From Candidatus Omnitrophota bacterium (lineage in GTDB: Bacteria; Omnitrophota; Gorgyraeia; Gygaellales; JAQTUX01): DNA of 64,000 bases. How positions within the stretch are numbered: the stretch's first letter is position 1; each line of letters begins with the position of its first letter. The notes beneath the pieces are model-generated. The model made no database searches, had not been told where the DNA came from, and saw only the letters and a list, made by a program, of their open reading frames with translations. Both the position numbers and the translations under genes were made by a program. This document shows, in pieces, positions 18,184 to 35,013 of this stretch. The stretch covers positions 208,355 to 272,354 of the forward strand of contig JAQTUX010000002.1 of assembly GCA_028707125.1 (NCBI GenBank), given 5' to 3'.

Positions 18184-19367
18184 TTTTGACTTTCTACTTT
18201 TAACTTTTTACTTTCTTTTGATATTTCTTTCTGCAATTCAAGGATCATTCTATGGCGCCTTTCTTTCTCTAACCTCGGCAGATCATCGGGAAACCGCGAC
18301 GCCTTCGCGTGAGGCCGCGCTGAATACTTGAATATATACGCCTTATCAAATCTTACCTTCTTTACGAGATCAAATGTTTCCTGAAAATCCGCCTCGGCCT
18401 CACCGGGAAAACCGACGATGATATCGGTTGTCAGTTCGCCGCCGAGAACGATCTCCCTGTATTTTGTTATTATATCCAAATAACGCTCTTTTGTATAGCC
18501 CCTATTCATAAGCTTCAGGATCCTGTTAGAGGCGGACTGAAGCGGCAGGTGCAGGTATTTCTTGAGCTTATCGCAGTCCCGCATCGCCAGGAACAGGTCA
18601 TCGCCGGCGTCCTTTGGGTGGCTGGTAATGAATGAAAATTGTTTGAGCCCCTTTACATCATTTACTAACCGTAATAACTGAGGAAAATTTATTGGCTCGG
18701 TTTTCAAATTATCTTTCCATTGATTCACATTCTGCCCTAGCAGCGTAATTTTAGTAATGCCGGCCTTAATATCTCCTTCTATCTCCTTAATGATATCCCG
18801 CGGGTTCCTATGCGTAAGTTTCCCGCGCGTATATGGCACAACGCAATAAGAGCAGAAATTCTCGCAGCCCTCGCTGATGACAACAAAGGCATGGTCTTTG
18901 TCCAGATGGAAACCGGTATGGTAGATCTCGTTGCCGCGCGATTCTCCGTCCAATTCATAGCGCTTCTTCTCAAGCAATCCTCTGTGTTTGTTTAAATCCT
19001 TAAGGATCTGCGGGATCTTCGCGATGTCGCGCGTTCCGGCTATAAAATCCACATTCGGCGCGCGGTTGAATATACCCTCGCGGTAACAATTCGCCATGCA
19101 GCCGACCACCCCGATGATCTTTTTGCCGCCCTTGGCCAAACTCCCCACCGCGCTCCAGACCTTATCCTCGGCGTGCTGACGCACGGAGCAGGTGTTAAAG
19201 ATTACGACGTCAGCGTCGGCTTCGTCTTCAACCAGCCGATATCCTGCCTGTATCAGGAGTCCGGAGATCACTTCAGAGTCTCTCGCATTCATCTGGCACC
19301 CGAACGTGCGTACGTACACTCTAAGGCCCTTATGTGCATCTTGGGTTTTACTTGGCTTAACAGACAT
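18180..19367 (-). CDS. miaB: MiaB-family radical SAM methylthiotransferase, apparently lacking a C-terminal TRAM domain
   Basis: UPF0004 N-domain with FGCQMN and a radical SAM core (CxxxCxxC, seen as CENFCSYC). Ends right after the linker helix at 395 aa. Adjacent to miaA. Confidence 0.8.
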   Translation of the reverse strand: MSVKPSKTQDAHKGLRVYVRTFGCQMNARDSEVISGLLIQAGYRLVEDEADADVVIFNTCSVRQHAEDKVWSAVGSLAKGGKKIIGVVGCMANCYREGIFNRAPNVDFIAGTRDIAKIPQILKDLNKHRGLLEKKRYELDGESRGNEIYHTGFHLDKDHAFVVISEGCENFCSYCVVPYTRGKLTHRNPRDIIKEIEGDIKAGITKITLLGQNVNQWKDNLKTEPINFPQLLRLVNDVKGLKQFSFITSHPKDAGDDLFLAMRDCDKLKKYLHLPLQSASNRILKLMNRGYTKERYLDIITKYREIVLGGELTTDIIVGFPGEAEADFQETFDLVKKVRFDKAYIFKYSARPHAKASRFPDDLPRLEKERRHRMILELQKEISKESKKLKVESQK

Positions 19368-20932
19368 TCTATATCTTCCTTTGGCAATAGTGTTCTGAAC
19401 GGTTCATACAAATCAACTTCTGTTATAACTCCTTCTTTCACAACGATTTTCTTAAACACCAATCTCAGGAGTGCCTTCTTCTCAAAGATGGATAGATTAG
19501 TCCGAGCTTTGGCGGGGTTATTCAATACAGAAGTCAGGAGGTTATTATATTCCTGAGAGGCTTCTTTTTCAATCAATTTCATTTCCAAACCCCTGATTTG
19601 CCGTTTTAATTTATCGTCCTCGTCCTTTAAGGGCTGCTGCGACCCCTTGTAAATCTCCTGACTGATACCACCGTCCAGATAAATCGCAGTAAGTTTCTTT
19701 TGTTTTTCGTGGTTATCATTAAGGGCCTTGCGGGCATTGTAAAAGGCCGCAATAATTTCATCGGACGGGTCTCCGGCCACTTTAAGCAGCTCAGTGTAAC
19801 GCTTTTCTTTTACGGCATTGTGGGCTGCTGCCTTTTCTAATACCTCAAGAGCAAATTCATCGTACGAAGCCGCCACTATATTTCTGTTATTACATTCAAT
19901 GCCTCTTGTTTCGCCTTTAAGCCGGCACCTGTACCATTTCTTTCTTTCCCCTGTCTTTCGGTTCGCGGTATTCGTCATCCCCAGATAGCTGCTTCCGCAA
20001 ATTCCGCATCTTAAAATCCCCGTTAACAGATGTTCGTACTTGTTGAAAATTCTACGAATTGGTTTTCTGTTGTTTGCCAAACGCAACTGCACCTTCTTAA
20101 AGTCCTCATCGGTTATTATGGGCGTATGCGCGCCTTGGGCTTCAACAGTATCCGAGACCTTTCCGGGTAGATAACGGTAACCTTTACCATAACCGCCTTT
20201 TGTCTTTTCCTTCTTACTGTAATGCCGGCGGTTCCATATCAACTTGCCCGTATAAACCTTGTTCTTGAGAATGTCGCAGATTAACTTGCTGTGGAATTTT
20301 ATCCCTGTTCTGGTTTTGTAACCCATGTGATATAAATGGGCCGTAATCTCTGAGGTTGTTTTGCCCAACAGATACATGGAATAGATAGTTTTGACAATCT
20401 CTGCCTGTTCAGGCACAACTTCCAACAGCTTCTTTTCCTTATTATAGTGATAACCGTACGGTGCAAATCGTGCACCTTGCCAATGACCGGCCTTTACGCC
20501 TTTAATCATACCGGGAAAAACTCGTTCCTTGATTCTGTTCCGTTCAAATTCAGCAAAGCTGCCCAACTGCTGAAACATTAAATTGCCAGCCGAGGTTGAA
20601 GTATCAAATGGCTCAGTGGCTGACTTAAAAGCAACCTCTTTTTCTGCAAGTTCCTCTACCAATGAAATCAAATCTTTTAACCGTCTGCTAAATCTATCAA
20701 TCTTATATACTATTACCAAACCAAATTTTCCGTTTTTAACATCTGAAAGAAGCTGCTGAAGCGCAGGCCGCTCTTTTGTATATCCGCTTATACCCTCGTC
20801 TTTGTATATTTTATACACTTGATATTGTTCACGCTTAGCATACCCACACAGGTATTCCTCCTGTACTTCAAGGGAATAGCCTTCTCTTGCCTGGTCTTCA
20901 GTACTAACTCGTATGTAAATCGCAACTTTCAT
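19289..20932 (-). CDS. large serine recombinase (phage/ICE-type integrase)
   Basis: N-terminal resolvase catalytic domain (IYIRVSTEDQ), a recombinase domain, and a Cys zinc-ribbon region (CGICGSSY...C). 547 aa. Confidence 0.85.
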   Translation of the reverse strand: MKVAIYIRVSTEDQAREGYSLEVQEEYLCGYAKREQYQVYKIYKDEGISGYTKERPALQQLLSDVKNGKFGLVIVYKIDRFSRRLKDLISLVEELAEKEVAFKSATEPFDTSTSAGNLMFQQLGSFAEFERNRIKERVFPGMIKGVKAGHWQGARFAPYGYHYNKEKKLLEVVPEQAEIVKTIYSMYLLGKTTSEITAHLYHMGYKTRTGIKFHSKLICDILKNKVYTGKLIWNRRHYSKKEKTKGGYGKGYRYLPGKVSDTVEAQGAHTPIITDEDFKKVQLRLANNRKPIRRIFNKYEHLLTGILRCGICGSSYLGMTNTANRKTGERKKWYRCRLKGETRGIECNNRNIVAASYDEFALEVLEKAAAHNAVKEKRYTELLKVAGDPSDEIIAAFYNARKALNDNHEKQKKLTAIYLDGGISQEIYKGSQQPLKDEDDKLKRQIRGLEMKLIEKEASQEYNNLLTSVLNNPAKARTNLSIFEKKALLRLVFKKIVVKEGVITEVDLYEPFRTLLPKEDIECLLSQVKPKMHIRALECTYARSGAR

Positions 20933-21780
20933 TCTTGGCCTGTTTAGTGTCTTTCTTTCGCATCTTTTCTAATAGTAAATTGAGGAACCGTACGTCTGCC
21001 TGATGCAGAATATGCACCAACTCATCAAGCCGGTATTCCGTATCGTTAATTTCAACACCTTGTTCTGTATCAATGGTAGCTTGCATTTCATACCTTAATT
21101 AGTATTCATCCGGAAACAGTACGCAAGTTGAAGAACGGTCTGCCTCCGTAATAATCCATATCTTTTTGTCACGATAATTGTACGAGGAAAACAGGCGCAA
21201 GTATTTGCCAATGGCGAATTCATTTTCTCTTTTGTCCTGTTCGTCCATATCACCCCAATCACCCGAAACATGCCGCTTCAGACAGCCGGTAACAAACTTT
21301 GCGAAGCTTGCGTTGTCGGCCAACGCATCATTAATCCCTCTTGTACAAACTACGCGCCCCAGCACAAACAATCCCATTTTGCCCTCCCTCTTGAATCCCT
21401 CTTACAAATGAGCCAAAATTGACCACAGTAGCCCACACGTGACCACAAAAATCTGTAGCCGAGGCCTTCCCCCCGCCCTCCACCTGTATTCAATTTGTCG
21501 CGCTCCTCGTTAGTGATTACTATCAGTAAGTTACGATAGAATTGTAGATTTCTTTATTTTGCCAGCTTTTTATCGACTCCTCTTCCAAGGCCTCTGCATA
21601 CCCTCTTCAATCTTTAAGTTTTTAAGCCAAATTAGCTTAACTCTCTTTTATATAGCAAGTTAGGTTGACTCAACCTGTCTTAAATCTTCAAGACAGCGCG
21701 GACAACTTTAAGACACTGTAAATATTTCAAAAAACATAGGTTACGGAATAACGGCTTAAAGACTTAAAAAATTAACCGGG

Positions 21781-23496
21781 TTAAGGCTGTGGCACTTGAT
21801 ACCGTTCAATCCAATTTCTAAGATTGTCCAAATTAAAAATGTAAACTCTCTGCCGGCCCTCGTCCTTAAACCTCCTTTGGGTAGAAACTATACCGATTTG
21901 TTTCAGCATATGAGTTAATTTGTTTTGCAACAATGCAAAACTAAACTCCTTAGATTTGGAAAAATAGCTCAAAACATAGCTCGCCCTATATCCGCGGAGA
22001 TTTGGTTTAAGAAAAAATGGTTCTTTATCTTTTAATAGGTTTTTTAATACAATCAATGTTTTGGTTAATTCATCCTGTACAATATCGTCATCCGCCTTAG
22101 ACTCTATAGCTTTATAACTAAATTCTGTCATCTGTTTAGTAATGAGGTCTTTAGAATTAGACAAATCATCAATAAGGTTTGCAAGGATAAAGATAGGCTC
22201 CCATATATCAAGGTCGCGATTGCCTAAATGCTCAATGCCGCGAATCAGCTTCTCTTCGTTATACCTTTTATAGATTTCATCGGCATGAGTAAGGACAAAC
22301 TGATACATCTGGTCTCTGGTGTCCTTTTGTAATTTTTGGATTTCTTCGCTCTGTTTATATCTTTTAATACTCTCCTCTTTCTTCTTTCTTATCATTGTAA
22401 TTTTTGTGACCCTGTCTTCTAATACGGGGTCGAGTTGTGATATTCCTCCAAGGCATTTTGGGCAATACGCAGAGAATGTCTCAGGGATAAAATTTCCATA
22501 TTTATCTTTTGCTAATCTTTTAATTTCGCCTGAACATGAAAAACCACTATTTAGAAGCGAAATAAAATCTCCGCTTAATTCCCTGTTTGCTTTTGTAAAA
22601 CTTTCTGCTTCATCAATAAATAATGTTCTTAAGTTAGCGTGGACATCGCGAAAAAGAGCTGCCATAGTTATGTTTGCAAGAGAACACCCGTTAAAGGATA
22701 GTGGAGCCATAATATCCATGAGTAGTGATTTCCCGCTACGCTTTGGTGCTGTAATCCAAAGGTATGGATAATATCGGAACATCTTGAAGCAGTAAGTTCC
22801 CATTAACCAAAGTGCCAAAAAAGCTGCCTGTTGGTCATTTTGGAATAAAATATACGTTCTTAAATAATCTACTATGGAAACAAAAAGCCGATGGGCATCC
22901 GGCCCTCCCTCTCTCTCAATAAATTCAATTACGCCTTTACTTGAAAAATTAGACACCTCTGTGCCTTCGGGCTCTAGTTTAAACCCTAATTCCTGTGCAG
23001 CCTTATAATAGGTAAGGATTTCCTTGCGCGATGTTAAAAGATACTTTCCGTCCTTTGACTTAAACATATAAAACATCCTCCCCTTCTTATAGTCTTGGCA
23101 TGGGTGTATTATTGTCTGCTCTTTTTCTTCTCCGAGATTTTTCTTTATTTTATCGATGTTGATTTCTTCAGGGACGGTATCGACCTGCTCCTGCGACTCC
23201 TCTTTTAACTTCATTACCCGTTTGAATATTTGTTCAACCTCCTTACCCGATATATTTATTGAGGAATCTTTACACTGAAAATGCTTTTTAAATTCCGTTT
23301 TAATGTATAACCTAGACGCCTCTTCCGGGATTTTAGATAAATAGAGCAATAATGGCATTGATTCTTCGATTAATGCTGTGGAGTGTATATTCTTGGGTAT
23401 GCGGCCCAATAGATAGTCGGGATATAATTGGGCTTTATCGACTAACTTTTCGAATCCCTGCTTTTTATGCACGATGAAGAAGTCATCTAGTTTCAT
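21781..23496 (-). CDS. P-loop NTPase, primase/helicase-associated (DUF3987-like)
   Basis: Walker A TAPKRSGKS and Walker B-like LFIDEAE. Its 571-aa size and its position next to a toprim-like gene fit mobile-element replication modules. Confidence 0.5.
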   Translation of the reverse strand: MKLDDFFIVHKKQGFEKLVDKAQLYPDYLLGRIPKNIHSTALIEESMPLLLYLSKIPEEASRLYIKTEFKKHFQCKDSSINISGKEVEQIFKRVMKLKEESQEQVDTVPEEINIDKIKKNLGEEKEQTIIHPCQDYKKGRMFYMFKSKDGKYLLTSRKEILTYYKAAQELGFKLEPEGTEVSNFSSKGVIEFIEREGGPDAHRLFVSIVDYLRTYILFQNDQQAAFLALWLMGTYCFKMFRYYPYLWITAPKRSGKSLLMDIMAPLSFNGCSLANITMAALFRDVHANLRTLFIDEAESFTKANRELSGDFISLLNSGFSCSGEIKRLAKDKYGNFIPETFSAYCPKCLGGISQLDPVLEDRVTKITMIRKKKEESIKRYKQSEEIQKLQKDTRDQMYQFVLTHADEIYKRYNEEKLIRGIEHLGNRDLDIWEPIFILANLIDDLSNSKDLITKQMTEFSYKAIESKADDDIVQDELTKTLIVLKNLLKDKEPFFLKPNLRGYRASYVLSYFSKSKEFSFALLQNKLTHMLKQIGIVSTQRRFKDEGRQRVYIFNLDNLRNWIERYQVPQP

Positions 23497-23498
23497 TG

Positions 23499-24143
23499 TT
23501 ATTTCTCCGGTAAATTAATTATTTTCACTATGGCCCCTTTGCCTATAAGCATCTCGGCAAGACACCTCTCGGCCAAAAAAACATTCTTATTGGTAAATTT
23601 ATCCGAATCGAAGACAATCTGAACTACGCGCCCCTTCAAGGCTATGTTGTCAAAATCCTCTACTGGCTCATGTCCACTCGACCAATTCCAAACCCCTGAA
23701 ATAGCGATTGCAAAGAAGCCTTCTTGGCAGGCCTTTAGTGCCTTTTTTTCGCCTTCCGTTAGGAAAATCGGGACATTCACATCATCAATAATCGGCCAAA
23801 CTTTCGGCGGAATGTAAAGACGGGATTTAACTCCTATAGGCCGTATATATTTACGGGACTTTTTACCTGCCACATCTTCCGGCAAAGGTATATCTAGCTT
23901 AAAATTTAAATCCTTTTCCAAGAAACCATCTTTACCTATATATGGTATAACGTAGCCGCCACCGACCCCTTGTTGCCGATTAAGTAAAGTTTTACTCTCT
24001 TCCGCTGAAGCTGAATATATACGCACCGCGAGAATCATTTCATCTAAAAGTTTAGATCTACGTAAGTCCGCCAAATGCTGTGGTAGCAAGACTTCCTTAA
24101 CGTGTTTCGGCCATTCCTTATTTAAGTGCTTAGGTTTAAACAT
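23499..24143 (-). CDS. toprim-like protein (DUF3854-like)
   Basis: IFLTEGEKKALKA (toprim E-G-x-x-K-A) followed by DSD acidic residues. Immediately downstream of the P-loop gene. Confidence 0.45.
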   Translation of the reverse strand: MFKPKHLNKEWPKHVKEVLLPQHLADLRRSKLLDEMILAVRIYSASAEESKTLLNRQQGVGGGYVIPYIGKDGFLEKDLNFKLDIPLPEDVAGKKSRKYIRPIGVKSRLYIPPKVWPIIDDVNVPIFLTEGEKKALKACQEGFFAIAISGVWNWSSGHEPVEDFDNIALKGRVVQIVFDSDKFTNKNVFLAERCLAEMLIGKGAIVKIINLPEK

Positions 24144-24202: not shown

Positions 24203-24760
24203 TTATTTCCCGGTATCGGCCCTATTCTTTCTTTGGATTTTTACTTTTACGGTACGAGTCTCCTTAATTGTTTCTTCAATGAACTTATTTTTATCAATGC
24301 CGTGTGGGTCTTCTGCTCTTCCAAGAACTGATGCTAATTTTTCGATAATCCGTTTGGCAACCCGGTCATTTTCTACCTGAAATATGAAAGCTTGAGTCTT
24401 CCTGTTCTTGCAGAAACTATCGTAATAATGTTTTAAGAAGTCGCGGAAAACCTTTACTACTTCTGTCAGGTTTAGCGTATTCGTCAATGACATGGTAATA
24501 TCTTCAAGATCGAAATGAAGCATATTCTTCAATATAAATAAAGAGCAGAGCTGATCAATAATGCTTCCTTCAAAGTAAGCATTACGCCCGATATGAATAG
24601 GTTTTGGGATTACTCCTATTTCGCAATAATACTGTATAGTCCTCCGCGTTATCGCAATGCCTTTCTTCTTCAGAATGGCTACCACTTCATCAAGAGTAAG
24701 CCGGTTCTCTAATGGGGGTAATAAATCCGATATGGCTTCCTTAAGTCTATTGTCTGTCAT
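24203..24760 (-). CDS. MerR-family HTH transcriptional regulator
   Basis: N-terminal MerR HTH (LTLDEVVAILKKKGIAITRRTIQYY...IGVI). Confidence 0.6.
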   Translation of the reverse strand: MTDNRLKEAISDLLPPLENRLTLDEVVAILKKKGIAITRRTIQYYCEIGVIPKPIHIGRNAYFEGSIIDQLCSLFILKNMLHFDLEDITMSLTNTLNLTEVVKVFRDFLKHYYDSFCKNRKTQAFIFQVENDRVAKRIIEKLASVLGRAEDPHGIDKNKFIEETIKETRTVKVKIQRKNRADTGK

Positions 24761-27561: not shown

Positions 27562-27780
27562 CTATATTAAAGGCTGACTATCAATATTATCACCTTCTCT
27601 CTTGTCCGGATTATCGCGTAGATAGTTTACACCATTAATTTTAACCGTATGATAACCGGGCAGATTACCATTTTTAACCATTTTGACTGCCTCTGTTCGC
27701 CGAACAACCCTGTCTCCAATCTTATAATGAGTGTTGCCGCCTGTATCATTTTCCTTTCTTCCTGTTATTCTTCTAGCCAT
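27562..27780 (-). CDS. DUF3892-like small protein
   Basis: YKIGDRVV...NGNLPGYHTV.ING..YLRDNPD pattern resembles DUF3892. Confidence 0.45.
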   Translation of the reverse strand: MARRITGRKENDTGGNTHYKIGDRVVRRTEAVKMVKNGNLPGYHTVKINGVNYLRDNPDKREGDNIDSQPLI

Positions 27781-27818
27781 AAATCCTCCTTTTCATGTTT
27801 TAGCATTCATTGTTAGTT

Positions 27819-28316: not shown

Positions 28317-28327
28317 ATTGATTATAT

Positions 28328-28966
28328 CTATTCTTTATGGCTCTCTTTGGGTATAACTGCTATAACAACACCTTGAATTTGAAAATCATCAGTTAAAATA
28401 ATCGGTTTGTGTCCTTCATTAGAAGATTTTGGTCTTAAAATAATCATATTTTGCGTACGGTGAAATTCTTTAATGGTCGCTTCCTCATTAATCAATGCTA
28501 CGACCCTATCTCCTTCATTGGCTGTTGACTGTTGTCTAACCAAAACAAGATCCCCATCGTTAATCCCTGCTTTATCCATAGAATCTCCCTGGGCATGTAA
28601 TAGATAATATTTTGACCCTGGCTTTGCAAGTGCAGTGGATACAGGAATAAATCCTTCTATATTTTCTTCTGCCAATATTGGCGTGCCGCAGGCTACGGTT
28701 CCAACTATTGGGATGTTCGTAGTTTGGGCATGCATCGAACCGAAATCCAAATCTCTAATAAGCTGGTAATCCCCATTTTTAAATTTCTTTATGACACCCT
28801 TTTCTTGAAGCTGCTCAAGTATATCCTGTACTGATCGCGGAGATTTGTAACTTAAATCAGCCATTAACTCCCTTATGGATGGAGCATATCCCTTGTGCAT
28901 AAGCCAGTTTCTAATATGACGAATAGCCTCTAACTGTTTCTTTGTTAAGCAATTCTCGTTCTTCAT
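28328..28966 (-). CDS. LexA-like repressor (S24 peptidase family)
   Basis: N-terminal winged HTH (PSIRELMADLSYKSPRSVQDILEQLQEKGVI). C-terminal S24 domain with Ser (GDSM) and Lys (KEF) catalytic-dyad context, plus the AQGDSM...GDLVLV pattern. Confidence 0.8.
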   Translation of the reverse strand: MKNENCLTKKQLEAIRHIRNWLMHKGYAPSIRELMADLSYKSPRSVQDILEQLQEKGVIKKFKNGDYQLIRDLDFGSMHAQTTNIPIVGTVACGTPILAEENIEGFIPVSTALAKPGSKYYLLHAQGDSMDKAGINDGDLVLVRQQSTANEGDRVVALINEEATIKEFHRTQNMIILRPKSSNEGHKPIILTDDFQIQGVVIAVIPKESHKE

Positions 28967-29075: not shown

Positions 29076-30062
29076 ATGGCACTAAAACCACAGAATAAAA
29101 AACACGAAGCACAAATTCTAGCAGGCACCATTGGAAGAAAAAAAGGGCACAATTTTGAAAAGGATTTGACTTGTGCTCTCAATTTGATAGACGTCAGACA
29201 AATCTTCCCCTACCCGAATATTCCGCACCATATCGTCATGGGAAAACCTTCCTTGCTGCTTTTATATTATGTAGCTCAAAAGAAGGAATTAAAAAATATT
29301 AAAAAGATTAAAGCTTGGTGGCTTGGAGGACTCGCAACCTCAGGGGAAGGAGATAAATTAACCGATAAAGACGGTCAACCAATTGCAAAAAGCAAAAGCG
29401 ATGTCCTAATTGAAATTCAACACGGAGACAAGGTAGACATTGCGGGGATTTCTGTAAAAACTTGTGATAAGGAAACTCCGACTAACGACCAGCTTTATTT
29501 CACTACAGCTTCAGCTTTTTGTGGCTTATTAAGAGCGAACAATATACCTATCTCAAAGGATGCTGAAATTGCTTTAAAAATGTTCTGTGGTGACGCGGGA
29601 TTTAGACCAACCGATTCTTTAGCAACCATCAAAGAAAGAAAATCTGACCCGGACAGATGGTTTTGGGAAGAATTGCCAAAGAAATTACGTTTAGAACTAG
29701 AGGCAGCTTTCATTAAATACCAAAAAGAAATAAGCACGGTTTTGTTACAAAAAGCTTACCCAAATGACCCGTATCCTCCAGAATTTTTACTTCATCAAAC
29801 AAAGAAATACTCTAATATTAATAATTGCGAGGTCGCTTTATTTACAATAGACGAATTAATCGACTTGTCTTGCAAAGCCTGCCGATTTACTTTAAAACCT
29901 TATTTTGTAAGAAAAGGAAGGTTTAAAGGAGATCCGAGTAAACATTTAGCTCCTCGATTTGGTTTTATACAGATGCAGCGAGGAGGTCAAAAGCAACATC
30001 CAACGCAATTACAATTTAATCTTCAGGCCGGTTATTTCTATAAGATTGGAGAAAATGCTTAA
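29076..30062 (+). CDS. putative Type II restriction endonuclease (cognate of the adjacent C5-MTase)
   Basis: 328-aa ORF convergent with, and overlapping by 4 nt, a C5-cytosine methyltransferase. A Vsr gene sits next to the pair. Possible PD-(D/E)xK core (SDVLIEIQHGDKVDIAGISVKT). No recognisable family. Confidence 0.4.
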   Translation: MALKPQNKKHEAQILAGTIGRKKGHNFEKDLTCALNLIDVRQIFPYPNIPHHIVMGKPSLLLLYYVAQKKELKNIKKIKAWWLGGLATSGEGDKLTDKDGQPIAKSKSDVLIEIQHGDKVDIAGISVKTCDKETPTNDQLYFTTASAFCGLLRANNIPISKDAEIALKMFCGDAGFRPTDSLATIKERKSDPDRWFWEELPKKLRLELEAAFIKYQKEISTVLLQKAYPNDPYPPEFLLHQTKKYSNINNCEVALFTIDELIDLSCKACRFTLKPYFVRKGRFKGDPSKHLAPRFGFIQMQRGGQKQHPTQLQFNLQAGYFYKIGENA

Positions 30063-31435
30063 TAAAACTTCTTCAATAGATACTCTGCTATTGTCTTAGC
30101 AAGTAACGGCGGCACTGCATTACCTATCCCCTTCCTGACATCTCCATAATTACCAAGAAATATAAAATTGTCTGGAAATGTTTGACATCTAGCGGCCTCT
30201 CTAATCGTCAATGATCTTGTGCTGGAAGGATGCACGTTTCGACATCCAGAAATCATGCTGAAATTCGTACCAATAGTTGAGCAAGGCTCATTCCATTTTA
30301 TTCGCTTGTAAGTCGTATTGTAGCCGCTCGGCGGTCTCAGGGCTGGGTTTGTATTATCGTGCGCGCTCATTCCTTCAGGAACATTTTTTAACCATTTTAT
30401 TACATGATCTGGATGAGCAATTGCAAAATGCCACCGATCATTTTTAGATTCTTCGCCCGATTCAAGACATTCCAAGTCTTTAGTAGCATCTCTAAATGTT
30501 TTATACGGCTTTAATCCAATTCCGGGCAGCATATTCTGGTTCTTGCCGTGAGTAGGTACAGGGAAAGCTGGCACGATGTTGATATCTTTTCTAATCCCAA
30601 CAAATAAAACTCGTTCCCGCGATTGTGGTACCCCATAATTTTGAGCATTAATTTCTTGATATAAACATTTATACCCGGCTTTGTCAAATTTTTCAACCAT
30701 ATCATCTTTAACAAAACCTCCGCTTGGGGTCATCATAGACAATAGCGTTCTGACATTTTCTAAAACAACAAACTTTGGTTTTAAAATAGATGAAATTCTA
30801 GCAAATTCGTTATAAAGTTGATTTCGTGGATCATACACGTCTCGCTTACCAGCAAGGCTGAAGCCTTGGCATGGCGGCCCTCCGACTATCCCATCTAATG
30901 CTTTAATTTGTTCATGCCAATGTAATAACTTATCATTCGTTATATCTTTAACGTCATTCCCAAGATTTATTGCCTCTGGAAAATTAGCTTTAAACATATC
31001 TCTTGCGGATTTTTCTTTTTCCGCAAATCCCAATATGCTAAACCCGGCTTGTTTGAAGCCAAGTGCCAAACCTCCTATACCAGAGAAAAGTGCAATAACA
31101 GCTCTTTCTTTCGGGAATAGGTCACCCGCAATTTCGCCAACACCATCTTTGTGGTCGCGCGCCTCTGCTTCTTTTCTTCGTCCGTTGCGACCATTTGATG
31201 TTTGTGCAGAAAGCTTATACTGATGCTTAACATATCGTTTTTTAAAAGAGATTTTCCCTTTTTTATACTCTACGTCAAATTTGCTAAAAAAGTTTTTTAT
31301 ATTCTCTCCCTCTGCTTTTGTTGGAGTTTTTGTACCCAATTCCCACTGAGAAAGAATATATTGCTGAAGTCCCATTAAGCCTGCCATCTTAGCCTGACTC
31401 AATTTCCGCCTCAGTCGTTCAGTTCTAATCCACAT
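30059..31435 (-). CDS. DNA (cytosine-5)-methyltransferase with N-terminal HTH
   Basis: Motif I FSGIGGLALG, motif IV GGPPCQGFS, motif VI ENV. N-terminal XRE-like HTH (RRKLSQAKMAGLMGLQQYILSQWE). Confidence 0.9.
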   Translation of the reverse strand: MWIRTERLRRKLSQAKMAGLMGLQQYILSQWELGTKTPTKAEGENIKNFFSKFDVEYKKGKISFKKRYVKHQYKLSAQTSNGRNGRRKEAEARDHKDGVGEIAGDLFPKERAVIALFSGIGGLALGFKQAGFSILGFAEKEKSARDMFKANFPEAINLGNDVKDITNDKLLHWHEQIKALDGIVGGPPCQGFSLAGKRDVYDPRNQLYNEFARISSILKPKFVVLENVRTLLSMMTPSGGFVKDDMVEKFDKAGYKCLYQEINAQNYGVPQSRERVLFVGIRKDINIVPAFPVPTHGKNQNMLPGIGLKPYKTFRDATKDLECLESGEESKNDRWHFAIAHPDHVIKWLKNVPEGMSAHDNTNPALRPPSGYNTTYKRIKWNEPCSTIGTNFSMISGCRNVHPSSTRSLTIREAARCQTFPDNFIFLGNYGDVRKGIGNAVPPLLAKTIAEYLLKKFY

Positions 31436-31444
31436 ATGCTTACC

Positions 31445-31849
31445 CTATTTTATTTTTCTTAGAAATTGTGTTTGACATTTTTGTAAGATCTTTTTTATCT
31501 GACATTCCCATAAAATTACAACCTTCCATTTTCGCTTTTCTAGCTCTTCTTGTACAATTTTATCTCTTATTCTATTCTTGCTAATTTTATCATTCCAAAA
31601 GACTGCATTTCTAATTGGTTTCAGTCTTCCCTTCCTGCAATGTTTATGCCCATGCCAAAAACAACCGTGGACAAAAATGGCTACTTTATTCTTTGGTATG
31701 ATTATATCCGGCTTTCCCGGTAGTTGATTTGTTCTCAGGCTATATTTTATTCCTTGCCCCCTTAATACCATTCTTACTTCTTTTTCAATTGAAGTATTTT
31801 TCTGGCCGACTTTTTTCATTCTAAAAGAAGTAGCTTTGTCTGTTTTCAT
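31445..31849 (-). CDS. vsr: very-short-patch repair endonuclease
   Basis: VAIFVHGCFWHGH motif, 134 aa, adjacent to the C5-MTase. Confidence 0.85.
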   Translation of the reverse strand: MKTDKATSFRMKKVGQKNTSIEKEVRMVLRGQGIKYSLRTNQLPGKPDIIIPKNKVAIFVHGCFWHGHKHCRKGRLKPIRNAVFWNDKISKNRIRDKIVQEELEKRKWKVVILWECQIKKILQKCQTQFLRKIK

Positions 31850-31938
31850 ATTTATATACGATTGTTACCTACGCTCGGTTCCTATTTTCTTTTTTTATAA
31901 TTCACTATTTCACAACGAGTTAGACCTTCATATACACA

Positions 31939-32397
31939 TCACCCAACAATTGTAAAATCGGTATGTAACATTGCCGCCATCTTGCAGCCAAATGTTTTGA
32001 TGTAAACTCGAGAACATTTGGCTGCCGTGTCTGCGCCGCCGCGGGGTAAATCTTGCTGCGCAACATTTACCCCGCACGCTTGGCGGCCAGACGCCTCAGC
32101 CAGTACCTTATCCAATCTCTTGCCGCCTACTAACTTCTCTTTCTGCTCCCTCGTCAACCCCTTTATCCTCTTCTCCATCAAAAACGCCTTCTTAAAATAC
32201 TTATATTCCTTAGACCACACCAGCTCTACCGGCCTTCTATCCCTGGTATATTTAGCGCCTTTGCCATTATTGTGAAGCTCAAGCCGTTTTTCGACATTCG
32301 GAGTATAACCAGTATAGAATGTCCCATCACAGCACTCCACGATATAAACCCAGAACTTTCCTGCGCGTTTAAACTTCCTCCTCTTGCGCTGCTTCAT
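31939..32397 (-). CDS. GIY-YIG nuclease-superfamily protein (UPF0213-like) with atypical C-terminal extension
   Basis: FWVYIVECCDGTFYTGYTPNVEKRLELHN is a GIY-YIG core. The last roughly 50 codons run through two GC-rich perfect palindromes, so the true CDS may be shorter. Confidence 0.65.
   Translation of the reverse strand: MKQRKRRKFKRAGKFWVYIVECCDGTFYTGYTPNVEKRLELHNNGKGAKYTRDRRPVELVWSKEYKYFKKAFLMEKRIKGLTREQKEKLVGGKRLDKVLAEASGRQACGVNVAQQDLPRGGADTAAKCSRVYIKTFGCKMAAMLHTDFTIVG
31985..32076. repeat. two adjacent GC-rich perfect palindromes (13-bp and 11-bp stems)
   Basis: GCAGCCAAATGTT-16nt-AACATTTGGCTGC at 31985-32026 and GCGGGGTAAAT-13nt-ATTTACCCCGC at 32042-32076. This is an island of GC in AT-rich DNA. 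Confidence 0.6.
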
Positions 32398-32471
32398 GAC
32401 ATTCGCTTAAAAATATCACTTACGTTCATCGGCTCTTACAACATTAATAATGCACATTACAAAATTGTAAA

Positions 32472-33524
32472 TTAGCCTAGTCTAACTTTTGAGCAATATT
32501 CTGAAAACTTATCATATTTATACAATTTTCCTTGTGGTCCTAAAATTGGCGTTAATAATTTAATAAACTTATCTAAGACTTCCCTGCTAGGATCTACCAA
32601 ATACAATTCATCTAAATATAGTGGCTTTTTCTTAGAAAGACGAGACCGAACAACTTCATTTAATAATGAGTGAGCCATAAAATCAGTCTCTGGCAATGAA
32701 TACCCAACTATTATTAGAGCCTCACACTTTTCTAATGAACTTCTTGCTAAAGACCATATTGATGAATATGGCTCATCTGCGATATCTTTCGCAATCCCAG
32801 GTGGAAGTATTGAGATTCTCTCTGGCCTCGGATGCCCACTTCGTGATTTTTCAACATGTAACGGACGATCTTTTAACGCTATTCTTTTGTTATATTTATG
32901 AATAAGCCAATTTAAACTTCCATGCATTTTCAGTAGCATTACTTTACATTCGGGAAAATCATCTGGGGTTTGCGTAGTACCAAGCCATTTCTTTACCCAC
33001 CGACCAGATAGGCCTCCAATTCCGCTAACTCCATAACCGAATTTAGGATTCCAGATATTATGATTTTTCTTATTAAAAGATTCTTCGATAACTAAATCAT
33101 AATTGAATGTTATGATAACATCGCCTTTTTTTAAATTATCCAAAAGTTTTACATGACATTTACTCTGCACTGAATGTAAATGATTATTCTTAAGTTTACA
33201 GGTTGTTTGGATGTAAACCCTACGAATCAATTCCGTTAAATCTCCTAGTCGCATTGACCATTTGAATGGTTGCCCAATAGATTTTGATACAGCACAAATA
33301 CCTTCTCGAGCCTCAATATCTCTAAAATAATATTCTAAACTTACTTCAGATGTTTTTTTATATAAATCCCAAACTTGTTTAAGAACTCTACGTGCTAACT
33401 CCTGAGTGCCTCTGCCTTTAATAAGATGGGCTATATCAAAAAAATCTTTGTCTACGGGTGGAGGGATTCCTTCTTGATCGAAACCCGCCTTGGTTGCGCC
33501 AGCACCTAAAATAAATACGCGCAT
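32472..33524 (-). CDS. SIR2-like domain protein (SIR2_2/DUF4020-type, stand-alone)
   Basis: All four SIR2_2 motifs are present: FILGAGAT, VIITFNYDLVIEE, KMHGSLNW, IIVGYSLPETD. 350 aa with no fused effector or sensor domain recognised. Confidence 0.7.
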   Translation of the reverse strand: MRVFILGAGATKAGFDQEGIPPPVDKDFFDIAHLIKGRGTQELARRVLKQVWDLYKKTSEVSLEYYFRDIEAREGICAVSKSIGQPFKWSMRLGDLTELIRRVYIQTTCKLKNNHLHSVQSKCHVKLLDNLKKGDVIITFNYDLVIEESFNKKNHNIWNPKFGYGVSGIGGLSGRWVKKWLGTTQTPDDFPECKVMLLKMHGSLNWLIHKYNKRIALKDRPLHVEKSRSGHPRPERISILPPGIAKDIADEPYSSIWSLARSSLEKCEALIIVGYSLPETDFMAHSLLNEVVRSRLSKKKPLYLDELYLVDPSREVLDKFIKLLTPILGPQGKLYKYDKFSEYCSKVRLG

Positions 33525-33785
33525 TTCCCCTCCTTCTCATACAATTAGATCTATTCTTTCTATCAGTTTTACAACTTTCTTATTCTAAATTACTTAATTT
33601 CTTTATTATTCCCAGAATCATCTCTCGGTACTTGCACCAACGGTCAACCATAGGTGGATAGGTAGACTTTTTTATTTTTTAGTTCGTTGTCTTCCATAAT
33701 GTTACGCAAATATCCTTTACTCATTCATCGGTGTTCGAAATGAATGAGTGTGATCATTCTTCGAATCAATGTATTGCCTAAGTCG

Positions 33786-34883
33786 CTATTTTAGAATTCG
33801 ACATACTTCCGATAACAAAACGTCTAAATCATTTGAGAAATCAACCTGCGTCACAGTCGGAAGAACTTCTCTTTTTCTAACTTGAGAATGTAAACAACTA
33901 TCCGCAATTTTTCGTGAAGAATTTTCGAGATGCAGCATGGACTCTTTAAAGCTTTTTGTACCGTTGTAATTATTTGCCACTTCCGTAAAATTTTTAACGT
34001 TAAGTAGTGGCGGAACATGGTCAATAATTGCACGCGTTAATAAAATGACTGAAAAGTATGCCTCATTCTCAAACGCCATATTAAGCTCTTCACAAAATTT
34101 AATTAATTTGCTCAAATCAAACTCCTTTGAATTTATAGATTGTAATTCTTTAATCCTGTCTTCATTGACAAATTTTACTCCAAGCTTGCATTTGTTTTTA
34201 TTGCTTTGGGTTGGGTGCTTTAGACTTAAACGTTTGTAAAGTTTTATTGAAAGTTCAATGAAATCTTTGATTTGGTTGAATAAATAAATGCCTTCTTGAG
34301 CAACGCATTCATAATATATATGGCTTGGCAACAGCATTCCTTGGCTTAGAGCATTTGAATCCCGCGTCATAATACTTTTGGGCATTCGACTTTGAATAAA
34401 TGCTTGCTTTTTTCCCTTTTCAAAGACAAAATTCTTAATTTGATAAAAAACTTTCCGCTCTTCTTTTGTATCGCTGTCGAATTTATAATTTAAAAAAATG
34501 AGTTCGATTTCGTCCTTAACCTCAACTATCCTTCGAAATAACTCTTTAAGTTTGCTCTCAAATTTATCAATGGAGAAATTGCTACCACTTAATTTTTCTA
34601 TCATAGTTTTTACTTCGTCAGCGCTTTTTTCTCCCCACCCATTAGGTAAACCGTGAATATCTCCCCATTCTACGCTGAATCTTTTATTTAGCGGTGGGGA
34701 ATCGAAATCTCCAAAATACATGCGCCCATGCCAACCCGCAAAGGATCCACTCCATGAATTAGCAATTTTATTACAAGCATCTAACATGTTTTCTGCAGAA
34801 TGCAGCGTTTTATCGAGTTCCAAATTGTTTTGTCTCTTATAATCCTCAAGGAGAGAATTTAATTGACTTAAATTTATCGTCAT
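33786..34883 (-). CDS. hypothetical protein (possible HEPN-like Rx4H motif near C-terminus)
   Basis: 365-aa AT-rich ORF upstream of the SIR2 gene on the same strand. LTRAIIDH could be an Rx4H HEPN motif. No confident family. Confidence 0.3.
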   Translation of the reverse strand: MTINLSQLNSLLEDYKRQNNLELDKTLHSAENMLDACNKIANSWSGSFAGWHGRMYFGDFDSPPLNKRFSVEWGDIHGLPNGWGEKSADEVKTMIEKLSGSNFSIDKFESKLKELFRRIVEVKDEIELIFLNYKFDSDTKEERKVFYQIKNFVFEKGKKQAFIQSRMPKSIMTRDSNALSQGMLLPSHIYYECVAQEGIYLFNQIKDFIELSIKLYKRLSLKHPTQSNKNKCKLGVKFVNEDRIKELQSINSKEFDLSKLIKFCEELNMAFENEAYFSVILLTRAIIDHVPPLLNVKNFTEVANNYNGTKSFKESMLHLENSSRKIADSCLHSQVRKREVLPTVTQVDFSNDLDVLLSEVCRILK

Positions 34884-35013
34884 AATTTACCCCTCATTAA
34901 TCATTTTTCAAATTCCAACCGATTAAGGTGATGGCCATTTCTTCCATCACCTTCCTGTAGCGCTCCCATCTCCCAGCCAAAAGTTCGCAGTAAAACCCTT
35001 TTCTTGTCTTCTC

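What the first reader, a model, noticed from the sequence alone, without database searches (positions are those of the whole stretch)
19289..35000. AT-rich genomic island integrated next to miaB: serine-integrase element carrying replication, regulation, R-M and defence cargo
Base composition drops visibly between about 19.4 and 35 kb. The region begins with a 547-aa large serine recombinase whose last roughly 26 codons overlap the 5' end of miaB. This suggests integration at or in the start of miaB.

The cargo comprises:
- a toprim-like protein plus a P-loop primase/helicase-like protein;
- a MerR regulator;
- a small resolvase with a terminator;
- an XRE HTH gene with a palindromic operator;
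- a LexA-like repressor;
- a complete Type II R-M set (C5-MTase, endonuclease, Vsr);
- a GIY-YIG protein;
- a stand-alone SIR2-like protein and a 365-aa unknown.

I saw no transposase and no tRNA target. The right-hand boundary near 35.0-35.8 kb is inferred only from composition.
Basis: partly seen in the sequence, partly recalled or inferred. Interest (0 to 1): 0.6.

Follow-up and report, generated by a model that had tools for sequence, protein, structure and literature searches.

The report
Integrase island that splits and repairs miaB
A 12.7-kb mobile element sits inside the start of the tRNA-modification gene miaB of an uncultured Omnitrophota bacterium and carries a spare beginning for miaB, written in a second reading frame of its own integrase gene, so the gene stays open; the AT-rich stretch further right is a separate small block.

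Summary
Positions 31989-32400 are host DNA (48% GC): a GIY-YIG gene fused in frame to the original 5' end of miaB.

The serine-integrase element spans 19300-31988 (12,689 bp, 39% GC). It is inserted inside miaB, at the GG of the Gly codon in the conserved T-F-G-C-Q-M-N motif. Joining the two host flanks in silico gives one 509-codon GIY-YIG-MiaB ORF, collinear with a 507-aa protein from another Omnitrophota genome.

The element supplies a ribosome-binding-like site, an ATG and 22 codons of replacement MiaB N-terminus. These lie in an alternate frame of the last 79 nt of the integrase gene. The integrase stop codon (TGA within ATGA) lies in host DNA.

At least ten other contigs show related integrases joined to miaB at the same codon, with different cargo and different hosts. 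Several relatives carry attP-type junctions.

Positions 32401-35013 (SIR2-like gene plus a 365-aa unknown) form a separate AT-rich block with no recombinase or flanking repeats.

I rate this a new variant of a known kind. It works like the tyrosine-integrase islands that replace the dusA 5' end, but uses a large serine recombinase.

The parts
18180..19367 (-). Chimeric miaB (395 aa). Codons 1-22 come from the element; everything from the crossover Gly23 codon (GG shared, third base host) onwards is host.
   Evidence: UPF0004 + Radical_SAM. Matches solved MiaB 7MJZ at 2.5e-77 from residue 10. NCBI calls it from M26 as 370 aa (P0001).
19300..19301 (-). attL crossover dinucleotide GG (first two bases of the MiaB Gly23 codon). 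Element P arm lies at higher coordinates, host B' arm at lower.
   Evidence: Divergence points of near-identical elements in different hosts. All attP-type sites break after TFG.
19302..19367 (-). Element-encoded replacement MiaB start (MSVKPSKTQDAHKGLRVYVRTF), preceded by a GGAAG Shine-Dalgarno-like motif; lies in an alternate frame of the integrase 3' end.
   Evidence: The miaB frame is 62% conserved against 34% for the integrase frame across 10 diverged elements.
19544..19572 (-). Promoter-like site TTGAAA-17-TATAAT (11/12) inside the integrase gene, 177 nt upstream of the chimeric miaB ATG.
   Evidence: Consensus match only; function is inferred.
19289..20932 (-). Large serine recombinase, 547 aa in the integrated state. 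Its stop TGA (19291-19289) lies in host DNA. Predicted to be 566 aa when read across the reconstructed attP.
   Evidence: Pfam Resolvase, Recombinase, Zn_ribbon_recom. Matches TP901-1 integrase and SPbeta SprA/YokA structures. attP reconstruction.
20904..21086 (-). 60-aa ORF overlapping the integrase start. Conserved next to the integrase in close relatives. Candidate regulator or directionality factor.
   Evidence: tblastn to L082 at 92%. Equivalent 60-62-aa genes in L239, L243 and L244. No family hit.
21099..21377 (-). 92-aa ORF of unknown function, shared with L082.
   Evidence: 86% identity. No family hit.
21781..24143 (-). Putative replication module: DUF3631 protein (571 aa, 21781..23496) and DUF3854/toprim primase-like protein (214 aa, 23499..24143).
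   Evidence: Pfam; phrog_6088 DNA primase 3.9e-7; PADLOC RTasDnaG-like 8.8e-6.
24203..24760 (-). Weak MerR-like HTH protein (185 aa).
   Evidence: MerR_1 at 5e-4, just below the Pfam cut-off.
25109..25699 (-). Small serine recombinase (resolvase/invertase type, 196 aa).
   Evidence: Resolvase domain 6.7e-46. A small resolvase is also present in relative L242.
25882..28316 (.). Small cargo and regulatory ORFs: 198 aa (25882..26478, -), XRE HTH (26482..26736, +), 148 aa (26733..27179, -), phrog_4298 68 aa (27318..27524, -), DUF3892 72 aa (27562..27780, -), 165-aa Cys-rich protein with an Ada-Zn-like C-terminus (27819..28316, -).
28328..28966 (-). LexA-like repressor (LexA_DNA_bind + Peptidase_S24).
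29076..31849 (.). Type II restriction-modification set: REase (29076..30062, +), HTH-C5-cytosine MTase (30059..31435, -), Vsr mismatch endonuclease (31445..31849, -).
   Evidence: PADLOC REase_II 5e-73 and MTase_II 3e-92. Pfam DNA_methylase and Vsr.
31930..31987 (-). Element P' arm (CTGCAAGATGGCGGCAATGTTACATACCGATTTTACAATTG...).
   Evidence: Shares the nTGnnnGATGG start with family attP-type sites. 69% identical to the P' relic of L162, against 56 +/- 4% for shuffles.
31988..31989 (-). attR crossover dinucleotide GG.
31989..32397 (-). Host segment: GIY-YIG gene continuing in frame into the native miaB 5' end (...AAKCSRVYIKTFG). The ORF now ends 15 codons into the element (ORF 31939..32397).
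   Evidence: GC 0.483. GIY-YIG at 4.6e-18. Homologue directly upstream of intact miaB in L090. Native N-termini of P0060, P0093, P0104, P0113 and P0084 match. In-silico excision gives a 509-aa ORF collinear with P0084.
32401..35013 (-). Separate AT-rich block B: SIR2-like protein (32472..33524) and a 365-aa protein with a widespread conserved C-terminal domain (33786..34883). Not part of the integrase element.
   Evidence: GC 0.348. SIR2_2 and PADLOC SIR2 8e-12. Homologues of the 365-aa protein are not next to SIR2. No flanking repeats.

Best explanation
What it is. A 12,689-bp integrative element (19300-31988) entered the chromosome of a Candidatus Omnitrophota bacterium by large-serine-recombinase recombination. 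An attP on the element recombined with an attB inside miaB. The crossover is at the GG of the Gly codon in the conserved MiaB motif T-F-G-C-Q-M-N, immediately before the first of the three conserved N-terminal cysteines that, by established MiaB biochemistry, bind the auxiliary [4Fe-4S] cluster.

Effect on the host gene. Before insertion the gene was a single GIY-YIG-MiaB fusion ORF of 509 codons. Insertion separates the native promoter, the GIY-YIG part and the first MiaB codons (now at 32.0-32.4 kb) from the MiaB body.

How the element repairs it. The last 79 nt of the integrase gene encode, in another reading frame, a Shine-Dalgarno-like site, an ATG and 22 codons ending in ...RVYVRTF. These fuse at the crossover to the host G-CQMNARDSEV..., giving an open 395-codon miaB. 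That gene is presumably transcribed from the integrase transcript or from an internal promoter-like site.

Effect on the integrase. Integration places the integrase stop codon (TGA within ATGA) in host DNA, so the integrated integrase is 547 aa. Read across the reconstructed attP it would be 566 aa.

Cargo. A toprim/DUF3631 replication-like module, regulators (XRE, LexA-like, MerR-like), a small resolvase and a complete Type II R-M set with Vsr.

Family. The element belongs to a widespread family of miaB-targeting serine-integrase elements that shuttle variable, largely defence-type cargo.

Shown by computation: the boundaries, the family, the dual coding and the variable cargo. Inferred: catalysis by this integrase, present-day mobility, function of the chimeric MiaB, and the promoter.
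For: 1. GC profile: 0.389 for the element against 0.50 for the flanks, with a 412-bp host-like segment at 31989-32400.

2. Two miaB 5' segments on the same strand: RVYVRTFGCQM at 19319-19290 and RVYIKTFGCKM at 32007-31978. These are the only two in the window.

3. Joining 32397..31988 to 19299..18180 gives an uninterrupted 509-aa GIY-YIG-MiaB ORF. It aligns over residues 6-501 with P0084 (507 aa, 55% identity, one HSP) and restores the invariant GCQMN motif.

4. Host synteny GIY-YIG, miaB, SPOR/TPR protein, miaA is seen in L090. In L162, L164 and L166 the same order holds but a few genes separate GIY-YIG from miaB.

5. The same junction occurs in ten further independent loci. The integrase stop forms ATGA with the Met codon of GCQM in L001, L085, L086, L087, L091 and L092. 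The called genes overlap by the same 4 nt in L168, L239/L240 and L242. L097 is a variant with the stop 5 nt later.

6. Near-identical elements in different hosts diverge at or just after the GG. L086/L087 are 97-99% identical, then 71%. L091/L092 are about 95%, then 57%. Window/L082 are 90%, then unrelated.

7. attP-type sites (P arm, GG, non-miaB arm) occur in L082, L084, L088/L089, L090, L094 and L095. Where the ORF is complete it is longer, 557-577 aa; L084 runs off its contig.

8. Over the last 8 codons before the crossover the miaB frame is 62% conserved, against 34% for the integrase frame. An ATG lies 21-23 codons upstream with no stop in 9 of 10 lineages.

9. Cargo differs between relatives: CBASS-like patatin + SMODS in L168, ThsB_TIR + caspase in L239, DnaG + MCM in L242.

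10. Unoccupied miaB genes exist in relatives: L002, L090, L166, P0060, P0084.

11. L162/L163 keep a decayed relic: a native 5' fragment joined to a P' arm, then 470 bp, then miaB with a replacement N-terminus and no integrase.

12. The integrase has all three LSR domains and matches TP901-1 and SPbeta SprA structures.
Against: - No empty attB or excised circle was found for this species. The nearest MiaB is 72% identical. The predicted 509-aa native protein and 566-aa attP-form integrase are not on record. The only other contig found with the exact integrase (L081) is identical to the integrated state.
- The P' arm of the closest relative (L082, integrase 93% identical) does not resemble the window's P' arm beyond a short motif (47% against 54 +/- 4% for shuffles). 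So L082 may not be the attP of the same element, or the window's P' arm may be diverged.
- Coding constraint makes the two junctions similar from about -24 to +11. Within the window alone the crossover cannot be placed; GG rests on family comparisons.
- No recombination directionality factor was identified.
- Function of the chimeric MiaB and of the promoter-like site is untested.
- Not every clade member targets miaB: L241 in a closed genome, and L172/L173.
Confidence: 0.85

Rival explanations
1. One reading: one 15.7-kb island (19.3-35.0 kb) bounded by miaB on the left and a composition shift at 35.0-35.8 kb on the right, with GIY-YIG, SIR2 and the 365-aa gene as cargo.
For: Low GC continues to about 35.0 kb apart from one 412-bp stretch. 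SIR2 is a typical defence-island gene.
Against: 31989-32400 has host-like GC. It contains the native miaB 5' end in frame with GIY-YIG, and GIY-YIG-miaB adjacency or fusion is host synteny in relatives. Excision at the GG sites restores a complete ORF. No att-like site, repeat or recombinase is linked to 32.4-35.0 kb.
Confidence: 0.04
2. Same origin, but the copy in this window is a fixed, no longer mobile relic, with a domesticated integrase or inactive att sites. It now serves only as the promoter and N-terminus donor for miaB and as a carrier of an R-M system.
For: No excised or empty form was found. The window's P' arm deviates from the family motif (CAA where others have GCC or ACC) and from its closest relative L082. 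Decay to an integrase-less relic does occur in this family (L162/L163).
Against: The integrase ORF is intact, has all domains, and is 80-93% identical to copies found in other hosts and in attP-type context. Both arms and the whole cargo are free of obvious pseudogenes.
Confidence: 0.25
3. Insertion simply disrupts miaB. The upstream ATG and 22 codons are a by-product of attP/attB similarity, and the cell either lacks MiaB activity or makes a truncated protein from M26, as annotated by NCBI.
For: Public annotation starts MiaB at M26 (P0001). miaB is dispensable in model bacteria (established knowledge).
Against: A start at M26 removes the first conserved cysteine of the GCQMN motif. Across lineages whose integrases are only 45-50% identical, the alternate frame keeps an ATG, an SD-like purine run, no stops and the hydrophobic (V/L)(Y/F)(I/V)x(T/S)(F/Y)G strand, and it is better conserved than the integrase frame. 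The replacement N-terminus persists after the integrase is lost (L162).
Confidence: 0.08
4. The crossover lies 9-13 nt further 3', in the shared AGATG, not at GG.
For: AGATG is the longest identical run between the two window junctions, and their similarity ends just after it.
Against: This would make the native gene read GCKM, which none of 120 homologues shows. Window/L082 homology stops right after GG. All attP-type sites in the family break after TFG. L091/L092 already differ at the base before GG and at four positions between GG and ATG.
Confidence: 0.07

Closest known systems
dusA-associated integrase (DAI) islands and prophages (Farrugia et al. 2015, PMC4482086)
   Same: They integrate in the 5' end of a tRNA-modification gene and replace that 5' end with element-supplied sequence. 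The gene stays open while the native 5' fragment is left at the far junction. Cargo is variable.
   Different: DAI are tyrosine recombinases. Here the enzyme is a large serine recombinase. The target is miaB, not dusA. The replacement start is encoded out of frame inside the integrase ORF, and the integrase stop is supplied by the host.
Large-serine-recombinase elements inserted in protein genes (SPbeta/SprA in spsM, skin/SpoIVCA in sigK, A118 in comK, Bxb1 in groEL1, phiC31)
   Same: Same enzyme class: Resolvase + Recombinase + zinc-ribbon domains, with matches to SprA and TP901-1 structures. Intragenic attB, a 2-bp crossover and no target duplication.
   Different: By my own knowledge, those elements interrupt the target, and function returns only on excision. 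This family repairs the target on integration. No RDF has been identified here, and there are no phage structural genes.
SSV1-type archaeal integrases with attP inside the integrase gene (review PMC8371274)
   Same: The att site lies within the integrase ORF, so integration changes the integrase coding sequence.
   Different: SSV-type enzymes are tyrosine recombinases whose gene is split in two by integration. Here only the last 19 codons are exchanged for a host-supplied stop, and the integrase stays whole.
SCCmec / CcrAB at the 3' end of rlmH (orfX)
   Same: A serine-recombinase-driven island inserted in the coding end of an RNA-modification gene without inactivating it (own knowledge).
   Different: SCCmec targets the 3' end, so no promoter or start needs replacing. 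It uses a two-subunit Ccr system and occurs in Firmicutes.

Membership tests
Large serine recombinase (serine integrase) | N-terminal resolvase-type catalytic domain with the nucleophilic serine | tested here: met
   PF00239 at 1.4e-41 over residues 3-151. The motif YIRVSTEDQ with Ser10 is invariant against L001. Matches the TP901-1 integrase catalytic domain at 9.5e-28.
Large serine recombinase (serine integrase) | C-terminal recombinase domain plus zinc-ribbon domain | tested here: met
   PF07508 at 3.3e-19 and PF13408 at 1.4e-8. Alignment to SPbeta SprA/YokA over residues 39-499.
Large serine recombinase (serine integrase) | Recombination at a non-palindromic 2-bp core with no target-site duplication; hybrid attL and attR flank the element | tested here: met
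   GG core inferred from three pairs of related elements and six attP-type sites. The junction arms are hybrids, not duplicates. In-silico excision is scarless. Catalysis itself was not tested.
Large serine recombinase (serine integrase) | Separate recombination directionality factor for excision | tested here: inconclusive
   No known RDF family was hit. The conserved 60-aa ORF overlapping the integrase start (20904..21086) is only a candidate.
Integrated genomic island / integrative element | Foreign composition, a terminal integrase, defined att junctions, and presence/absence among relatives | tested here: met
   Unoccupied miaB in L002, L090, L166 and P0084. An empty site in the same species was not found.
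dusA-associated integrase (DAI) islands | Tyrosine recombinase of the DAI clade, specific for dusA | tested here: not met
   The integrase is a serine recombinase and the target is miaB. This element works like a DAI island but is not a member.
Prophage or phage satellite | Capsid, terminase, tail or lysis genes, or satellite hijacking genes | tested here: not met
   The ten otherwise unassigned ORFs scanned against PHROGs gave only a primase-like hit and two unknown-function families. Pfam found no structural domains in any ORF. The closest viral-contig relatives lack the miaB arm.
Integrative conjugative or mobilisable element | Relaxase, coupling protein or type IV secretion genes, or an oriT | tested here: not met
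   No such Pfam domains in any ORF of 19.3-32.0 kb. oriT is not testable here.
Type II restriction-modification system with Vsr | C5-cytosine MTase, cognate REase and very-short-patch repair endonuclease as neighbours | tested here: met
   PADLOC REase_II 5e-73 and MTase_II 3e-92. Pfam DNA_methylase 9.6e-70 and Vsr 4e-24. Recognition specificity was not tested.
SIR2-based defence systems (Thoeris ThsA/ThsB, DSR, SIR2-HerA, SIR2-pAgo) | SIR2 domain together with the system's partner gene or fused sensor domain | tested here: inconclusive
   The SIR2 domain is present (PF13289 1e-7; PADLOC SIR2 8e-12). No ThsB, HerA, Ago or large DSR architecture is present. The neighbouring 365-aa protein is not a conserved partner.
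MiaB methylthiotransferase | UPF0004 N-terminal domain, radical-SAM core and C-terminal TRAM domain | tested here: inconclusive
   UPF0004 and Radical_SAM are present, and the protein aligns with 7MJZ over 10-387. No TRAM domain was detected in the 395-aa protein. Most close Omnitrophota homologues are likewise 360-400 aa.

The most novel reading that the evidence does not exclude
The overlap may be more than a repair patch. Because attP lies inside the integrase ORF, the integrase has two state-dependent C-termini: 566 aa when read across the reconstructed attP, and 547 aa with a host-supplied stop when integrated. This could act as a built-in sensor of integration state that biases directionality or expression without, or alongside, a separate RDF.

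In one sub-clade (L001, L090, L093, L094, L098) the same arm is duplicated as a 157-176-nt inverted repeat around the integrase gene, and the cassette is seen in both orientations relative to miaB. That points to an invertible integrase cassette that always keeps a repair arm next to miaB.
Probability: 0.15. Interest if true: 0.8.

Novelty: new variant of a known kind. Interest (0 to 1): 0.58.

Why it matters
- It shows that serine integrases can follow the "insert in a conserved gene but repair it" strategy, here at the 5' end of a gene, where a promoter, a start codon and part of a cofactor-binding fold must be replaced. I found no report of this for serine integrases. The repair is packed into a second reading frame of the integrase itself.
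- It defines a large, uncharacterised family: 530 homologues at E<=1e-80, named only "recombinase family protein". The family has a predictable, highly conserved attB (the TFGCQMN-coding stretch of miaB), which is of interest for genome-engineering recombinase discovery.
- It identifies a main vehicle and hotspot for defence genes (R-M, CBASS-like, TIR/caspase) in Omnitrophota, a poorly known phylum of ultra-small bacteria.
- It flags a systematic annotation error: MiaB is called from M26, without its first cluster cysteine, wherever such an element is present.

Tried and rejected
- Same-species empty site. The genome-contig scan with MiaB found nothing closer than 52% identity. The protein search found nothing closer than 72% apart from the source MAG itself. 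Exact look-ups of three flanking host proteins were not on record. The predicted native 509-aa and attP-form 566-aa proteins were not on record.
- L081 (Logan SRR22315508) is 100% identical to window 18101-22542 and adds nothing.
- "MiaB called from MN(V/A)RDSE" as a proxy for occupied sites: rejected. L166 has a native short N-terminus and L162 is a decayed relic.
- Integrase length (about 566 aa) as a proxy for the attP form: rejected. L241 is a 566-aa relative at a non-miaB site in a closed genome.
- My first guess of a crossover at AGATG, with a GCCA-GA-TGGC palindrome in attP: rejected on family evidence.
- Rfam scans of the window and of L001, L090, L093 and L094 gave no hits, so the conserved GC-rich stretch beside the inverted sites stays unexplained.
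- SIR2 plus the 365-aa protein as a two-gene defence system: not supported.
- Flanking repeats for block B: none beyond chance.
- Viral-contig relatives have no miaB arm.
- Literature searches for a miaB-targeting serine integrase found nothing.

Full report
OBSERVATION

The window has about 50% GC on both sides (1-19299: 0.502; 35797-64000: 0.504) and a clear trough between 19.4 and 35.0 kb. At 200-nt resolution the trough is not continuous. Positions 32001-32400 rise to 0.53 and 0.46, and the segment 31989-32400 averages 0.483.

- a 547-aa large serine recombinase (LSR) at 19289..20932 (-) with Resolvase, Recombinase and Zn_ribbon_recom domains
- a DUF3854/toprim primase-like protein
- a 571-aa DUF3631 protein
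- a weak MerR-like protein
- a small resolvase
- an XRE HTH protein
- a LexA-like S24 repressor
- a Type II REase (PADLOC 5e-73), an HTH-C5-MTase and Vsr
- a GIY-YIG protein
- a SIR2_2 protein
- a 365-aa protein with no family

The LSR ORF and the miaB ORF (18180..19367, -) overlap by 79 nt. There is no tRNA, tmRNA or Rfam family anywhere in the window.

A SECOND miaB 5' END DEFINES THE REAL RIGHT BOUNDARY

The GIY-YIG ORF (31939..32397, -) ends with ...AAKCSRVYIKTFGCKMAAMLHTDFTIVG. This repeats the MiaB N-terminal motif ...GLRVYVRTFGCQMNARDSEV found at 19.3 kb. These are the only two such motifs in the window, and both are on the minus strand.

The stretch carrying the second copy has host-like GC. 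A GIY-YIG homologue lies directly upstream of an intact miaB in the related locus L090. A GIY-YIG gene also lies upstream of miaB, with a few genes between, in L162, L164 and L166. P0084, from another Omnitrophica genome, is a 507-aa GIY-YIG-MiaB fusion. Native MiaB N-termini of relatives (P0060 ...SGRQESGVNLATQHLPHGASDTTSKCLRVYIKTFGCQMN, and P0093, P0104, P0113) match the window's upstream fragment ...SGRQACGVNVAQQDLPRGGADTAAKCSRVYIKTFG.

Joining 32397..31988 to 19299..18180 in silico yields one uninterrupted 509-codon ORF. It aligns over residues 6-501 with P0084 in a single HSP at 55% identity.

The integrase element is therefore 19300-31988 (12,689 bp, GC 0.389). Positions 31989-32400 are host DNA. 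Positions 32401-35013 (GC 0.348; SIR2-like plus 365-aa genes) form a different, recombinase-less AT-rich block upstream of the host GIY-YIG gene.

A FAMILY OF miaB-TARGETING SERINE-INTEGRASE ELEMENTS

The host is a Candidatus Omnitrophica MAG (P0001, P0121 and P0241 are 100% matches; 510-kb contig).

In L001, a different Omnitrophota MAG whose MiaB is 52% and whose LSR is 47% identical, an LSR ORF overlaps miaB by 79 nt in the same way. A metagenome scan with the two-LSR alignment returned 17 full-length relatives.

In the window, L001, L085, L086, L087, L091 and L092 the LSR stop TGA overlaps the Met codon of MiaB's G-C-Q-M as ATGA, always in the same relative frame. L097 is a slight variant. 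L168 (GCA_028717645.1), L239/L240 (Ca. Gygaella obscura, LSR 80% identical) and L242 (82%) show the same junction.

Cargo is not conserved:
- window: R-M + Vsr, toprim/DUF3631
- L168: patatin + SMODS (CBASS-like) and an MTase-Mrr fusion
- L239: ThsB_TIR + caspase
- L242: DnaG-type primase + MCM + small resolvase

Unoccupied miaB genes exist in L002, L090 and L166. L162/L163 hold a decayed copy. It consists of a native 5' fragment joined to a P' arm (RVYIRTFG|WPYEALLQYDFTIFEG), then 470 bp, then miaB with a replacement N-terminus, and it has no integrase.

WHERE THE STRANDS CROSS

Within the window the two junctions resemble each other from about -24 to +11, because both encode the same peptide. 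The crossover therefore cannot be read off directly, and I used pairs of near-identical elements in different hosts:
- L086/L087 are 97-99% identical up to ...TACGGTTG and 71% afterwards.
- L091/L092 are about 95% identical up to ...ACTTT(C/T)GG and 57% afterwards.
- Window/L082 (LSR 93%) are about 90% identical up to ...ACGTTCGG and unrelated afterwards.

In L082, L084, L088/L089, L090, L094 and L095 the replacement-N-terminus arm is followed, right after T-F-G, by a non-miaB arm starting nTG(G/A)CC(G)nTGG. These are attP-type sites. Where the LSR ORF is complete it reads on to 557-577 aa; in L084 it runs off the contig.

The crossover is therefore the GG of the Gly codon, at window positions 19301-19300 and 31989-31988. 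This is also the only placement that restores the invariant GCQMN. A crossover in the shared AGATG would give GCKM, which none of 120 homologues shows.

The window's P' arm begins CTGCAAGATGG (compare L094 CTGGCCGATGG). It is 69% identical to the L162 relic arm, against 56 +/- 4% for shuffles. It is not similar to the L082 arm, and I record that as a caveat.

Reconstructed sites:
- attP: ...GTACGTACGCACGTTC-GG-CTGCAAGATGGCGGCAATGTTACATACCGA
- attB: ...GTTTACATCAAAACATTT-GG-GTGCCAGATGAATGCGAGAGACTCTGAAGT

THE OVERLAP IS A REPAIR DEVICE

The crossover lies one codon before the Cys of GCQMN. By established MiaB/RimO biochemistry, that Cys is the first of three cysteines holding the N-terminal [4Fe-4S] cluster. 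The window's MiaB aligns with solved MiaB 7MJZ from residue 10 through this motif. An insertion here removes the promoter, the start codon and the first beta-strand.

The element supplies all of these. A GGAAG purine run, an ATG at 19367 and 22 codons (MSVKPSKTQDAHKGLRVYVRTF) lie in a +2 frame of the integrase 3' end.

Across ten lineages whose integrases are mostly only 45-50% identical, this alternate frame keeps an ATG 21-23 codons upstream of the Gly with no stops in nine. L086 appears to use another start; compare P0067, MQHIEKSGD... Over the last 8 codons it is 62% conserved, against 34% for the integrase's own frame and 39% for the third frame.

A near-consensus promoter-like site (TTGAAA-17-TATAAT, 19572-19544, -) lies inside the integrase gene, 177 nt upstream. 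This is a consensus match only. The integrase stop lies 9-11 nt inside host DNA, so the integrated protein is 547 aa and the attP-form protein is predicted to be 566 aa. NCBI annotates this MiaB from M26 (370 aa), which omits the first cysteine.

WHAT IS NOT SHOWN

- I found no empty site or excised circle for this species. The only other contig found with the exact integrase is identical to the integrated state.
- No RDF is identified. The conserved 60-aa ORF overlapping the integrase start is only a candidate.
- Activity of the integrase, of the chimeric MiaB and of the promoter are inferences.
- The clade is not exclusively miaB-specific. A 566-aa relative in the closed Ca. Velamenicoccus archaeovorus genome sits before a Na+/H+ antiporter gene with no miaB-like arm. 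The nearest viral-contig relatives also lack the arm.

COMPARISON WITH KNOWN SYSTEMS

Functionally the closest match is the dusA-associated integrase islands, which replace the 5' end of dusA (PMC4482086). Those use tyrosine recombinases, so this element works like them but is not a member.

By enzyme it is a bona fide large serine integrase, with matches to TP901-1 integrase and SPbeta SprA. The classical intragenic LSR elements (SPbeta/spsM, skin/sigK, A118/comK) interrupt their targets (my own knowledge). An attP inside the integrase ORF is known for SSV-type archaeal tyrosine integrases (PMC8371274).

Searches for a miaB-targeting serine integrase found nothing. Family members are named only "recombinase family protein".

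BLOCK B

The SIR2-like protein hits only generic SIR2 models. The 365-aa protein has a widespread, highly conserved C-terminal domain of about 140 aa (59% identity to Desulfocapsa UWK_00854). A full-length homologue is not next to SIR2. No flanking repeats or recombinase are present. I read block B as two stand-alone genes of defence-island type, of unknown insertion history.

VERDICT

This is a new variant of a known kind. I put confidence in the boundaries and family at about 0.85, and interest at about 0.58.

Noticed in passing
L001 122-278 / 3661-3817; L090 8396-8571 / 11477-11652; L094 6244-6415 / 8507-8678; L093 53-129 / 3270-3346; L098 about 1350-1500 (-) and 3200-3345 (+): In one sub-clade the last 157-176 nt before the crossover (the arm with the embedded miaB start) is duplicated as a 96-100% inverted repeat on the other side of the integrase gene. 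Each copy is followed by GG and a P'-like arm. miaB is joined to the integrase-linked copy in L001 but to the inverted copy in L098, so the integrase cassette occurs in both orientations and is possibly invertible. The window's element has no such repeat.
   Followed up: partly
L090 8079-8258; L094 5944-6104 and 1-161 (inverted): A conserved, GC-rich, apparently non-coding stretch lies just outside the inverted att-like site and is itself repeated in inverted orientation in L094. No Rfam family matches it.
   Followed up: partly
L090 8396-11652: A 3.25-kb integrase + RhuM cassette bounded by the inverted arms sits between host pilus-like genes and an intact GIY-YIG-miaB block. It is not in miaB, and both of its sites are attP-like. 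How it got there is unexplained.
   Followed up: partly
window 31939-32397 joined to 18180-19299 (reconstructed); P0084: The native, pre-insertion gene is a single GIY-YIG-MiaB fusion ORF (509 aa), as in P0084 (507 aa, Omnitrophica WOR_2). A GIY-YIG nuclease-like domain fused to a tRNA methylthiotransferase is unusual. The element's insertion un-fuses the two parts.
   Followed up: partly
window 18180-19367: MiaB here, and in most close Omnitrophota homologues (360-400 aa), shows no TRAM domain. Some homologues are instead fused to the downstream TPR/SPOR protein (P0015, P0039, P0081; 621-660 aa).
   Followed up: no
window 19290-19292 (M26); P0001: Public annotation starts this MiaB at M26 (370 aa), after the first conserved cysteine, because the integrase ORF overlaps the true start. 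The same truncated call occurs in other occupied loci (L168, L239) and even in some unoccupied ones (L162, L166).
   Followed up: yes
window 33786-34883: The C-terminal 140 aa or so of the 365-aa protein is a very widespread domain with no Pfam family. It is 55-66% identical across Desulfobacterota, Bacteroidota, CPR and others, usually in proteins of about 230 aa, and is sometimes fused to PF09509 (TIGR02391) or PF10083. A full-length homologue sits among Fic, STAND-NTPase and TaqI-like genes.
   Followed up: partly
window 27819-28316: A 165-aa protein with a signal-peptide-like N-terminus, a Cys-rich stretch (CCSHHGGVCGCRCC) and a C-terminal Ada-type zinc-binding-like motif (PF02805, 2.8e-5). 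An odd combination inside the element.
   Followed up: no
window 21099-21377 and 20904-21086: Two small ORFs (92 and 60 aa) next to the integrase are the only cargo shared with the closest relative L082. They match no Pfam or PHROG family. The 60-aa ORF overlaps the integrase start by 29 nt, and equivalents occur in L239, L243 and L244.
   Followed up: partly
L162 9201-9700; L163 5390-5890: A decayed element only about 470 bp long (one Imm32-like 73-aa gene) lies between a relic attR and a miaB that still uses a replacement N-terminus. This shows the repair arm can be retained after the integrase is lost.
   Followed up: yes
L241 (CP019384.1 658764-680464): In the closed Ca. Velamenicoccus archaeovorus genome a 566-aa relative (47% identical) lies directly upstream of a Na_H_Exchanger/TrkA_C gene. 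That gene has the same Pfam domains and similar length as the antiporter at window 35841-37316. It is preceded by Phage_rep_O and an HTH_17-like 63-aa gene, which may indicate a different target specificity within the family.
   Followed up: no
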